A DNA stretch of 64,000 nucleotides. Origin: Escherichia coli (lineage in GTDB: Bacteria > Pseudomonadota > Gammaproteobacteria > Enterobacterales > Enterobacteriaceae). Of the stretch, positions 23,201 to 26,200 are shown piece by piece. The number at the start of each line of letters is the position of its first letter. Position 1 is the stretch's first letter. The position numbers were made by a program. The stretch lies in NCBI RefSeq assembly GCF_050320075.1, contig NZ_CP190018.1; one strand, given 5' to 3'.

Positions 23201-26200
23201 CCGTAACGAATCAGCGGATACCATGATTATCAAACGCACTCCTCAAGCCGCGTCGCCTCTGGCTTCGTGGCTTTCTTATCTGGAAAACCTGCACAGTAAA
23301 ACTATCGATCTCGGCCTTGAGCGCGTGAGCCAGGTCGCGGCGCGTCTTGGCGTTCTGAAACCAGCGCCATTTGTGTTTACCGTTGCGGGTACGAATGGCA
23401 AAGGCACCACCTGCCGTACGCTGGAGTCGATTCTGATGGCGGCAGGGTACAAAGTGGGCGTCTACAGTTCACCGCATCTGGTGCGTTATACCGAGCGCGT
23501 ACGTGTGCAGGGTCAGGAATTGCCGGAATCGGCCCACACCGCCTCTTTTGCGGAGATTGAATCGGCACGCGGTGATATTTCCCTGACCTATTTCGAGTAC
23601 GGTACGCTGTCGGCGTTGTGGCTGTTCAAGCAGGCACAACTTGACGTGGTGATTCTGGAAGTAGGGCTGGGTGGTCGTCTGGACGCAACCAATATTGTCG
23701 ATGCCGATGTCGCGGTTGTAACCAGCATTGCGCTGGATCATACCGACTGGCTGGGGCCAGATCGCGAAAGCATTGGTCGCGAGAAAGCAGGCATCTTCCG
23801 CAGCGAAAAACCGGCAATTGTCGGTGAGCCGGAAATGCCTTCTACCATTGCTGATGTGGCGCAGGAAAAAAGTGCACTGTTACAACGTCGGGGCGTTGAG
23901 TGGAACTATTCCGTCACCGATCATGACTGGACGTTTAGCGATGCTCACGGCACGCTGGAAAATCTGCCGTTGCCGCTTGTCCCGCAACCGAATGCCGCAA
24001 CGGCGCTGGCGGCACTGCGTGCCAGCGGGCTGGAGGTCAGTGAAAATGCCATTCGCGACGGGATTGCCAGCGCAATTTTGCCGGGACGTTTCCAGATTGT
24101 GAGCGAGTCGCCACGTGTTATTTTTGATGTCGCGCATAATCCACATGCGGCGGAATATCTCACCGGGCGTATGAAAGCGCTACCGAAAAACGGGCGCGTG
24201 CTGGCGGTTATCGGTATGCTACATGATAAAGATATTGCCGGAACTCTGGCCTGGTTGAAAAGCGTGGTTGATGACTGGTATTGTGCGCCACTGGAAGGGC
24301 CGCGCGGTGCCACGGCAGAACAACTGCTTGAGCATTTGGGTAACGGCAAATCATTTGATAGCGTGGCGCAGGCATGGGATGCCGCAATGGCGGACGCTAA
24401 AGCGGAAGATACCGTGCTGGTGTGTGGTTCGTTCCACACGGTCGCACATGTCATGGAAGTGATTGACGCGAGGAGAAGCGGTGGCAAGTAAGTTTCAGAA
24501 TCGGTTAGTGGGCACGATCGTGCTGGTGGCGCTGGGGGTGATTGTACTTCCAGGGCTGCTGGACGGGCAGAAAAAACATTATCAGGATGAGTTCGCGGCT
24601 ATCCCGCTGGTGCCAAAAGCGGGCGATCGCGATGAGCCTGATATGATGCCAGCCGCCACCCAGGCGCTGCCGACGCAGCCGCCGGAAGGCGCAGCGGAAG
24701 AGGTGCGGGCAGGTGATGCCGCAGCACCGTCGCTCGATCCGGCCACTATTGCAGCCAATAACACCGAGTTTGAACCGGAACCTGCACCGGTCGCCCCACC
24801 GAAGCCGAAACCGGTGGAGTCGCCTAAACCGAAGGTTGAAGCACCACCTGCGCCGAAGCCAGAACCGAAGCCGGTCGTGGAAGAAAAAGCAGCGCCAACG
24901 GGTAAAGCTTATGTTGTGCAACTGGGCGCGCTGAAAAATGCCGATAAAGTGAATGAGATTGTCGGTAAGCTGCGCGGTGCCGGTTATCGGGTTTATACGT
25001 CGCCATCCACGCCAGTGCAGGGTAAAATTACCCGTATTCTGGTTGGGCCTGATGCTTCCAAAGAGAAGCTGAAAGGATCGCTGGGTGAGCTCAAGCAGCT
25101 TTCTGGCTTAAGTGGCGTGGTAATGGGCTATACGCCGAATTAATACGGTCTTGCCCGATGCCGCAAAGGCATAAAAAGTCGATGGCGTTGAATATTTTTT
25201 CAGCGCCATTTTTATTGATGCGTGGGAAGGAAATCCCTACGCAAACGTTTTCTTTTTCTGTTAGAATGCGCCCCGAACAGGATGACAGGGCGTAAAATCG
25301 TGGGACACATATGGTCTGGATTGATTACGCCATAATCGCGGTGATTGCTTTTTCCTCTCTGGTTAGCCTGATCCGCGGCTTTGTTCGTGAAGCGTTATCG
25401 CTGGTGACATGGGGTTGTGCTTTCTTTGTTGCCAGTCATTACTACACTTACCTGTCAGTCTGGTTTACGGGCTTTGAAGACGAACTGGTTCGAAATGGGA
25501 TTGCCATCGCGGTACTGTTTATCGCTACCCTGATTGTTGGTGCTATCGTGAACTTCGTGATAGGCCAGTTGGTGGAGAAAACGGGGTTGTCAGGCACCGA
25601 TCGGGTGCTGGGCGTCTGTTTCGGTGCGTTGCGCGGTGTGTTGATTGTTGCCGCCATTCTCTTCTTTCTCGACTCCTTTACCGGGGTGTCGAAAAGCGAA
25701 GACTGGAGCAAATCACAGCTGATCCCGCAGTTCAGTTTTATCATCAGATGGTTTTTTGATTATCTGCAAAGCTCGTCAAGTTTCTTGCCCAGAGCGTAAG
25801 TGCTCTGAGATGTGGCTTAACGAGGAAAAAGACGTATGTGCGGTATTGTCGGTATCGCCGGTGTTATGCCGGTTAACCAGTCGATTTATGATGCCTTAAC
25901 GGTGCTTCAGCATCGCGGTCAGGATGCCGCCGGCATCATCACCATAGATGCCAATAACTGCTTCCGTTTGCGTAAAGCGAACGGGCTGGTGAGCGATGTA
26001 TTTGAAGCTCGCCATATGCAGCGTTTGCAGGGCAATATGGGCATTGGTCATGTGCGTTACCCTACGGCTGGCAGCTCCAGCGCCTCTGAAGCGCAGCCGT
26101 TTTACGTTAACTCTCCGTATGGCATTACGCTTGCCCACAACGGCAATCTGACCAATGCTCACGAGTTACGTAAAAAACTGTTTGAAGAAAAACGCCGCCA

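What the first reader, a model, noticed from the sequence alone, without database searches (positions are those of the whole stretch)
25239..25267. PurR box overlapping the promoter of cvpA-purF-ubiX
acgcaaacgttttctt is a close match to the PurR operator consensus and sits just upstream of a -10-like tagaat, about 60 nt before cvpA. This is consistent with purine repression of the whole operon from a single site.
Basis: partly seen in the sequence, partly recalled or inferred. Interest (0 to 1): 0.2.

Follow-up and report, generated by a model that had tools for sequence, protein, structure and literature searches.

The report
Known PurR operator at purF promoter

Summary
The window is E. coli chromosome (dedD | cvpA-purF-ubiX | argT). 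ACGCAAACGTTTTCTT lies at 25239-25254, followed by TAGAAT at 25262-25267, with the cvpA ATG at 25311, as reported. Its reverse complement is, letter for letter, the cvpA-purF-ubiX PurR motif in the K-12 ChIP-chip table of Cho et al. 2011, and the region 25224-25330 is identical to K-12. A PurR matrix built from 26 other ChIP sites scores it 22.2 bits. That is the top of the window (next best 13.7), with 0.0024 such hits expected per window. The published cvpA start site (-37 by nuclease mapping, -36 by 5' RACE) falls at 25274/25275, 7-8 nt after TAGAAT, so the box covers -35 to -20. TAGAAT is preceded by TG (extended -10) and the -35 is weak. The 29-nt block is nearly invariant in 48 of 48 Enterobacterales loci while the flanks diverge. 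Aeromonas has a weaker, shifted box, and 62 other gammaproteobacterial loci have none. The likely mechanism is promoter occlusion by corepressor-bound PurR. One caveat: evidence that ubiX is purine-regulated is weaker than for cvpA-purF. One side observation is unexplained: a hairpin-forming dyad spans the start site. Verdict: already known, low interest.

The parts
25181..25215 (+). Intrinsic terminator of the upstream gene dedD: a 12-pair stem-loop followed by a T-run. It insulates the cvpA promoter from upstream transcription.
   Evidence: Terminator scan; conserved stem and T-run in the Enterobacterales alignment.
25239..25254 (+). PurR operator (PUR box) ACGCAAACGTTTTCTT, a 16-bp imperfect palindrome with a central CpG at 25246-25247. 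It covers -35 to -20 relative to the start site at 25274.
   Evidence: Identical to the K-12 ChIP-chip motif. Present in 48/48 Enterobacterales loci.
25238..25243 (+). Weak -35-like hexamer TACGCA (3 of 6 matches, 18-nt spacer) lying inside the operator.
   Evidence: Read directly from the sequence. The promoter scan did not call this promoter because the -35 is below its threshold.
25259..25267 (+). Extended -10 element TGtTAGAAT: TG at 25259-25260 and the hexamer at 25262-25267.
   Evidence: Sequence. Mean identity 0.99-1.0 across 47 unique Enterobacterales sequences. Aeromonas keeps TGTTAGACT.
25274..25275 (+). Transcription start of cvpA p1: -37 by nuclease mapping, -36 by 5' RACE. The 5' UTR is 36-37 nt.
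   Evidence: Table in PMC2760140 citing Makaroff 1985 and Nonet 1987, mapped onto the window through the K-12 identity shown.
25268..25293 (+). GC-rich discriminator GCGCCC (25268-25273) together with a complementary GGGCGT (25288-25293). This dyad or hairpin spans the start site and its role is unexplained.
   Evidence: The arms differ but remain complementary in Proteus, Providencia and Arsenophonus; statistical support is modest.
25311..25799 (+). cvpA (162 aa), first gene of the operon.
25836..27353 (+). purF (505 aa), amidophosphoribosyltransferase, the first enzyme of de novo purine synthesis.
27363..27387 (+). Perfect 10-bp hairpin without a T-run in the purF-ubiX spacer.
   Evidence: Not called as a terminator.
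27448..28017 (+). ubiX (189 aa), flavin prenyltransferase, third gene of the operon.
28026..28048 (+). Terminator-like hairpin (8-bp stem, then TTTT) just after ubiX; the likely end of the operon.
   Evidence: Fold. Below the T-run threshold of the scan.

Best explanation
Window 25239-25254 is the purF operator, the single PurR binding site of the E. coli cvpA-purF-ubiX operon. When hypoxanthine or guanine is abundant, the PurR dimer (LacI/GalR family) carrying its corepressor binds this 16-bp imperfect palindrome. The site occupies -35 to -20 of a sigma-70 promoter that has a weak -35 and an extended -10 (TGtTAGAAT), with transcription starting at 25274/25275. Bound PurR therefore competes with RNA polymerase for the promoter and lowers initiation of the operon mRNA, which cuts synthesis of the first enzyme of purine synthesis. 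Shown: the sequence, its position relative to the mapped start, in-vivo adenine-dependent PurR occupancy, in-vitro binding, and deep conservation. Inferred: steric occlusion as the mechanism, and the extent to which repression reaches ubiX.
For: The box is an exact consensus match and unique in the window. The leave-out matrix gives 22.15 bits, with 0.0024 hits expected per window. The 16-mer equals the cvpA-purF-ubiX motif under an adenine-dependent ChIP-chip peak in K-12, and window 25224-25330 is identical to K-12. PurR shifts a cvpA-purF fragment in EMSA. The start site at -37/-36 puts the box at -35 to -20. The Cho et al. text states that PurR sites generally lie between the -35 and -10 elements and regulate initiation, and a review says PurR sites mostly overlap the promoter. 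The 50-nt core is exact in 5360 of 5421 E. coli genomes. All 48 Enterobacterales loci carry the box at -69 to -74 from the cvpA ATG. The 29-nt block of box plus TGnTAGAAT is 95% identical to Morganellaceae, while the flanks are 40-48% identical. In Yersinia pestis, deleting purR raises purF about 4-fold. cvpA-purF belong to the purine-responsive Pur-1 expression module.
Against: Nothing contradicts PurR binding. Repression was not measured in this strain, and purR itself is not in the window. The simple promoter scan did not call this promoter because its -35 is weak. Occlusion is inferred from position, not demonstrated here. ubiX is absent from the Pur-1 module list, and in a meta-analysis it changes in the opposite direction to cvpA and purF under stress.
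Confidence: 0.96

Rival explanations
1. PurR control from this site covers cvpA and purF fully but ubiX only partly. ubiX would receive additional independent expression, or reduced read-through past the purF-distal hairpin, so 'repression of the whole operon' overstates the case.
For: The Pur-1 purine module is listed with cvpA-purF but not ubiX. In a transcriptome meta-analysis, cvpA and purF are among down-regulated hubs while ubiX is listed among up-regulated genes. The purF-ubiX spacer is 94 nt and holds a perfect 10-bp hairpin at 27363-27387.
Against: The transcription unit is named cvpA-purF-ubiX in the ChIP study. The three genes have similar sigma-70/sigma-S ratios in in-vitro run-off arrays (1.85, 2.12, 1.90). 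The scan found no promoter or T-run terminator in the spacer. From memory, Nonet et al. 1987 placed dedF (ubiX) in the purF operon.
Confidence: 0.35
2. PurR bound here acts mainly as a roadblock to transcripts coming from upstream, either read-through from dedD or an unmapped upstream promoter, rather than by occluding the TAGAAT promoter.
For: A dyad spanning the mapped start (25268-25293) could only fold in RNA that begins upstream of 25268. PurR is known to act as a roadblock at purB and purR.
Against: The start maps at -37/-36 by two methods. A good dedD terminator lies at 25181-25215. The conserved block ends exactly with TGnTAGAAT.
Confidence: 0.03
3. The match is a chance occurrence or a non-functional relic.
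For: None beyond the general fact that short motifs occur by chance. Weaker matches at 8-14 bits are scattered through the window.
Against: Only 0.0024 hits of this score are expected per window. There is experimental occupancy and binding. The site is near-invariant across Enterobacterales while the flanks diverge.
Confidence: 0.005

Closest known systems
E. coli K-12 purF operator (PurR box of cvpA p1; Makaroff & Zalkin 1985; Rolfes & Zalkin 1988; Cho et al. 2011)
   Same: The 16-mer is identical, and so is the promoter and 5' UTR sequence from window 25224 to 25330. Downstream gene order and position relative to the mapped start site are the same.
   Different: There is one SNP 16 nt upstream of the box (25223, T in the window, C in K-12). 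The window strain also lacks the 91-bp REP/BIME insertion that K-12 carries just after dedD. Neither difference touches the operator or the promoter.
Other pur-regulon operators that overlap their promoters (purMN, purL, purHD, purEK, purC, purT)
   Same: All share the 16-bp palindromic motif ACGNAAACGTTTGCNT with a central CG. Each is a single site bound by a PurR dimer and overlaps core promoter elements.
   Different: The right half-site here is more degenerate (AAGAAAAC against ACGCAAAC). The matrix score of 22.2 bits is mid-range among the 28 ChIP sites, which span 9.5-25.4.
PurR roadblock operators in purB and purR, and the remote carAB site at -128.5
   Same: Same repressor and same motif.
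   Different: Those sites lie downstream of the start or far upstream, and act by blocking elongation or need helper proteins. The site here lies at -35 to -20.
Aeromonas cvpA-purF upstream box (GCGCAATCGTTTTTGT)
   Same: It sits upstream of the same gene pair and keeps the TGTTAGAnT extended -10 and the GCGCC discriminator.
   Different: The box is weaker (16.4 bits) and lies 5 bp closer, directly abutting the -10, at -52 from the ATG instead of -72.

Membership tests
PurR operator (PUR box) of the E. coli pur regulon | 16-bp imperfect palindrome matching ACGCAAACGTTTTCNT / ACGNAAACGTTTGCNT | tested here: met
   15 of 15 specified positions match. Scores 22.15 bits with a matrix built from 26 other sites, P=1.9e-8 per position.
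PurR operator (PUR box) of the E. coli pur regulon | Central CpG step at positions 8-9. From memory of the PurR-DNA crystal structures, this is where the hinge helices insert. | tested here: met
   C25246-G25247. Invariant in all 47 unique Enterobacterales sequences.
PurR operator (PUR box) of the E. coli pur regulon | Located at the promoter of a nucleotide-metabolism transcription unit, overlapping core promoter elements | tested here: met
   The published start at -37/-36 maps to 25274/25275, so the box lies at -35 to -20. purF identity is confirmed.
PurR operator (PUR box) of the E. coli pur regulon | Occupied by PurR in vivo in a corepressor-dependent way and bound in vitro | not testable with these tools
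   Published for the identical K-12 sequence (ChIP-chip peak only with adenine) and for EHEC DNA (EMSA). Not measured in this strain.
PurR operator (PUR box) of the E. coli pur regulon | Downstream genes derepressed in a purR mutant and repressed by purines | not testable with these tools
   Literature only. cvpA-purF are in the Pur-1 module, and purF rises about 4-fold in a Y. pestis purR deletion. From memory, He et al. 1990 reported 5- to 17-fold coregulation of pur genes including purF.
PurR operator (PUR box) of the E. coli pur regulon | Conserved at the orthologous position in related genomes | tested here: met
   48 of 48 Enterobacterales loci carry a box of 18.6-25.2 bits at -69 to -74. 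Aeromonas has one in 7 of 7 loci at -52. It is absent from 62 other gammaproteobacterial loci.
PurR operator (PUR box) of the E. coli pur regulon | purR gene present in the same genome | not tested
   purR is not in the 64-kb window. It is expected in E. coli, but this was not checked for this strain.
Sigma-70 extended -10 promoter | A -10 hexamer close to TATAAT, preceded by TG one base upstream, with the start 6-9 nt downstream and a weak -35 tolerated | tested here: met
   TAGAAT matches 5 of 6, with TG at 25259-25260. The start is 7-8 nt downstream. The -35 TACGCA matches 3 of 6. The block is invariant across Enterobacterales. Functional dependence on the TG was not tested.
cvpA-purF-ubiX operon | Three co-oriented genes transcribed from one promoter with no internal terminator | tested here: inconclusive
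   Gene order and the 36-nt and 94-nt spacers are confirmed. No T-run terminator lies inside. In-vitro run-off ratios are similar. However, a hairpin lies at 27363-27387 and ubiX is missing from the Pur-1 module list.

The most novel reading that the evidence does not exclude
The cvpA-purF promoter may carry a second, undescribed control layer. A GC-rich discriminator (GCGCCC, 25268-25273) resembles those of stringently controlled promoters. It pairs with GGGCGT at 25288-25293 to form a dyad across the start site. The arms change sequence but stay complementary in Proteus, Providencia and Arsenophonus. This could mark ppGpp/DksA sensitivity of the promoter, or a structure that acts only in read-through RNA from dedD.
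Probability: 0.15. Interest if true: 0.3.

Novelty: already known. Interest (0 to 1): 0.05.

Why it matters
It matters little as a discovery, because this is the reference PurR operator. It was used to define the repressor and to solve PurR-DNA structures, and genome-wide studies have re-found it. Confirming it shows that the first-stage reader can recognise a real regulatory site from sequence alone. It also fixes the anatomy of the locus in this non-K-12 strain: operator at -35 to -20, extended -10, start at 25274/25275. The only points worth a specialist's glance are whether ubiX truly shares purine control, and the unexplained dyad across the start site.

Tried and rejected
- **Promoter scan:** it did not flag the cvpA promoter because the -35 fails its threshold. 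The promoter was assigned instead from the TGnTAGAAT element, its conservation and the published start site.
- **Original papers:** Makaroff & Zalkin 1985, Rolfes & Zalkin 1988 and He et al. 1990 are not held. The Warr et al. CvpA paper is not held either. The start site therefore comes from the comparison table in PMC2760140.
- **Literature searches:** searches for 'purF promoter' and 'cvpAp' gave nothing relevant. The supplements of Cho et al. are not held, so their expression values for cvpA, purF and ubiX could not be read.
- **Rfam:** a search of 24900-25900 at E<=10 gave only two noise hits to eukaryotic lncRNA models, so there is no known cis-regulatory RNA here.
- **Hairpin at 25268-25293:** MAFFT plus RNAalifold on the region after the -10 gave no consensus structure, because loop lengths differ between families. 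Per-sequence folding gave z-scores of -0.7 to -2.9 in the diverged lineages, and own-lineage against cross-lineage arm complementarity was 6/6 against 4-5/6. This is suggestive only. Because the 5' arm lies upstream of the mapped start, the hairpin was rejected as a 5'-terminal mRNA stem-loop.
- **ppGpp link:** a search linking ppGpp, discriminators and purF gave nothing specific.
- **Second operator:** none exists in or near the operon (best 7.0 bits). In taxa lacking the upstream box, the cvpA-purF spacer also holds none.

Full report
**Observation**

ACGCAAACGTTTTCTT occupies 25239-25254 on the + strand and TAGAAT occupies 25262-25267. The first ATG of a 162-codon ORF is at 25311.

The window is E. 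coli chromosome:
- Bases 24900-25900 are 100% identical to several RefSeq genomes and more than 95% identical to 5425 of 5426 complete genomes.
- A 9-kb stretch differs at one base from NZ_CP042899.1. That record is annotated truA-dedA-accD-folC-dedD-cvpA-purF-ubiX-argT-hisJ.
- NCBIfam models independently identify the three ORFs as CvpA, PurF and UbiX.

**Is it more than chance?**

The 16-mer matches all 15 specified positions of ACGCAAACGTTTTCNT. It is the only zero-mismatch hit in the window, and none of 100 shuffles gave one.

I built a weight matrix from 26 PurR ChIP-chip sites in Table 1 of Cho et al. 2011 (PMC3159470). I left out this site and the fabB-mnmC entry, because both lie within this window. 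Results:
- The site scores 22.15 bits, mid-range among genuine sites.
- The next best score in the window is 13.7 bits, and the next best within the operon is 7.0 bits.
- The exact score distribution gives P=1.9e-8 per position. That is 0.0024 hits expected per window and 6e-6 in the 167-nt intergenic region.

**Identity with the known site**

Cho et al. list AAGAAAACGTTTGCGT at K-12 2,428,842-2,428,857 as the motif of the cvpA-purF-ubiX transcription unit. It lies under a ChIP-chip peak seen only when adenine was added. That string is the reverse complement of window 25239-25254.

Alignment with MG1655 shows the window is identical to K-12 from 25224 to 25330. There is one SNP at 25223, and K-12 has a 91-bp REP/BIME insertion just after dedD that this strain lacks.

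Purified PurR shifts a cvpA-purF fragment from EHEC in EMSA (PMC5829826). A review also refers to the PurR-purF operator crystal structures (PMC6245113).

**Promoter and start site**

The consensus scan did not call a promoter here, because the -35 is poor: TACGCA matches 3 of 6, with an 18-nt spacer. TAGAAT matches 5 of 6 and is preceded by TG at 25259-25260, which makes an extended -10 (my reading).

The comparison table of Mendoza-Vargas et al. 2009 (PMC2760140) lists b2313 (cvpA) p1 with two values:
- a known start at -37 by nuclease mapping (Makaroff 1985; Nonet 1987);
- their own 5' RACE start at -36.

These map to window 25274 and 25275, 7-8 nt after TAGAAT. The operator therefore spans -35 to -20. 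It overlaps the -35 position and most of the spacer.

**Conservation**

Within E. coli, the 50-nt core 25228-25277 is exact in 5360 of 5421 genomes that hold it.

For other species I used one pattern scan of the species-representative genome collection. The pattern was a degenerate DNA version of the CvpA N-terminus, so it was not chosen on the upstream region. It returned 120 loci.

| Group | Loci | Best PurR box upstream of cvpA | Position from the ATG |
|---|---|---|---|
| Enterobacterales with readable upstream DNA | 48 of 48 | 18.6-25.2 bits | -69 to -74 |
| Aeromonas | 7 of 7 | GCGCAATCGTTTTTGT, 16.4 bits in six loci; CCGCAATCGTTTTTGT, 12.0 bits in one | -52 |
| Shewanella, Colwellia, Idiomarina and others | 62 | none above 8.5 bits within 300 nt | none |

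- Among the 48 Enterobacterales loci, 40 carry the identical 16-mer and 6 carry ...TTTTCGT.
- In an alignment of 47 unique sequences, the box, the TTTT run that follows it (25255-25258), TGn and TAGAAT have mean identity 0.99-1.0. The block 25239-25267 is 95% identical between the window and Morganellaceae, while the flanks are 48% and 40% identical.
- In Aeromonas the box directly abuts TGTTAGACT.
- In the 62 loci without a box, none lies in the cvpA-purF spacer either, although most (52 of 62) keep purF just downstream of cvpA.

**Mechanism**

PurR carrying hypoxanthine or guanine binds the operator at -35 to -20 and competes with RNA polymerase. This lowers initiation of the cvpA-purF(-ubiX) mRNA.

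- Shown in the literature: binding and adenine dependence and the general rule that PurR sites overlap promoters and regulate initiation.
- Consistent functional data: cvpA-purF belong to the Pur-1 purine module, and purF rises about 4-fold in a Yersinia pestis purR deletion.
- Inferred from position: steric occlusion at this particular promoter.

**Does control reach ubiX?**

For co-transcription:
- The unit is named cvpA-purF-ubiX.
- The three genes show similar sigma-70/sigma-S ratios in in-vitro run-off arrays.
- No promoter-like site or T-run terminator was found between purF and ubiX.
- A terminator-like hairpin follows ubiX at 28026-28048.

Against full coupling:
- The Pur-1 module list names cvpA-purF only.
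- A meta-analysis lists ubiX as up-regulated where cvpA and purF are down-regulated.
- A perfect 10-bp hairpin without a T-run sits at 27363-27387.

I rate partial uncoupling of ubiX at about 0.35.

**Unexplained side observation**

The six bases after the -10 (GCGCCC, 25268-25273) are complementary to GGGCGT at 25288-25293. In Proteus, Providencia and Arsenophonus the arms differ in sequence but remain complementary, and a less regular stem remains in Morganella.

Support is modest:
- Per-sequence z-scores in those diverged lineages are -0.7 to -2.9.
- A rough Fisher combination of five lineage P values, worked by hand from the fractions, gives about 0.001.
- Own-lineage arm complementarity is 4-6 of 6 (6/6 in E. 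coli, Providencia and Arsenophonus; 5/6 in Proteus; 4/6 in Morganella), against a cross-lineage background of mostly 4-5 of 6.

Because the mapped start is at 25274/25275, the 5' arm is not in the primary transcript, so this is not a 5'-terminal mRNA stem-loop. It may reflect a GC-rich discriminator, a structure formed only in read-through RNA from dedD, or coincidence. Rfam has nothing here.

**Verdict**

The element is already known, the classical purF operator, and interest is low.

Noticed in passing
window 25268-25293: A dyad or hairpin, GCGCCC-(14 nt)-GGGCGT, starts at the base after the -10 and spans the mapped start site. The arms change but stay complementary in Proteus (GCTTCCG/CGGAGC), Providencia (GCACT/AGTGC) and Arsenophonus (ACCTTC/GAAGGT). 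The 5' arm lies upstream of the start, so its role is unclear. The GC-rich discriminator resembles those of stringently controlled promoters.
   Followed up: partly
window 25154/25155 (against K-12 NC_000913.3 about 2,430,920-2,431,010): K-12 MG1655 carries a 91-bp insertion of two REP-like palindromic units (a BIME) just after the dedD stop. The window strain lacks it, so the dedD-cvpA spacer is 167 nt here and 258 nt in K-12.
   Followed up: partly
window 27363-27387: A perfect 10-bp hairpin, TCAGGGTGCC-ggtct-GGCACCCTGA, without a T-run lies 10 nt after the purF stop in the 94-nt purF-ubiX spacer. It may be an mRNA 3' stabiliser or a partial terminator that uncouples ubiX. The 3' arm 10-mer also occurs at 61602-61611.
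   Followed up: partly
window 14962-14977: ACTAAAGCGATGGCAT is the ortholog, with one substitution, of the weak 'fabB-mnmC' motif in the PurR ChIP-chip table of Cho et al. It scores only 9.5 bits and lies inside the fabB coding sequence, not in the intergenic region, so it is probably not a real operator.
   Followed up: partly
window 25144-25310, minus strand: An in-vitro run-off microarray study (PMC3141248) lists the intergenic region upstream of cvpA as transcribed in the direction opposite to cvpA. No conserved antisense promoter was evident by eye.
   Followed up: no
L012, L028, L035, L042, L049, L054, L066 (Aeromonas), about -52 from the cvpA ATG: In Aeromonas the PurR-like box GCGCAATCGTTTTTGT (CCGCAATCGTTTTTGT in L054) directly abuts TGTTAGACT. 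The 5-bp TTTTC spacer seen in Enterobacterales is missing, so the box sits about half a helical turn closer to the -10. The GCGCC discriminator is retained.
   Followed up: partly
window 25229-25238: GGAAATCCCT, just upstream of the operator at -45 to -36, has 0.90 mean identity across the 47 unique Enterobacterales sequences; in Morganellaceae it is replaced by A/T-rich sequence. It may be an extension of the PurR footprint or an upstream promoter contact.
   Followed up: no
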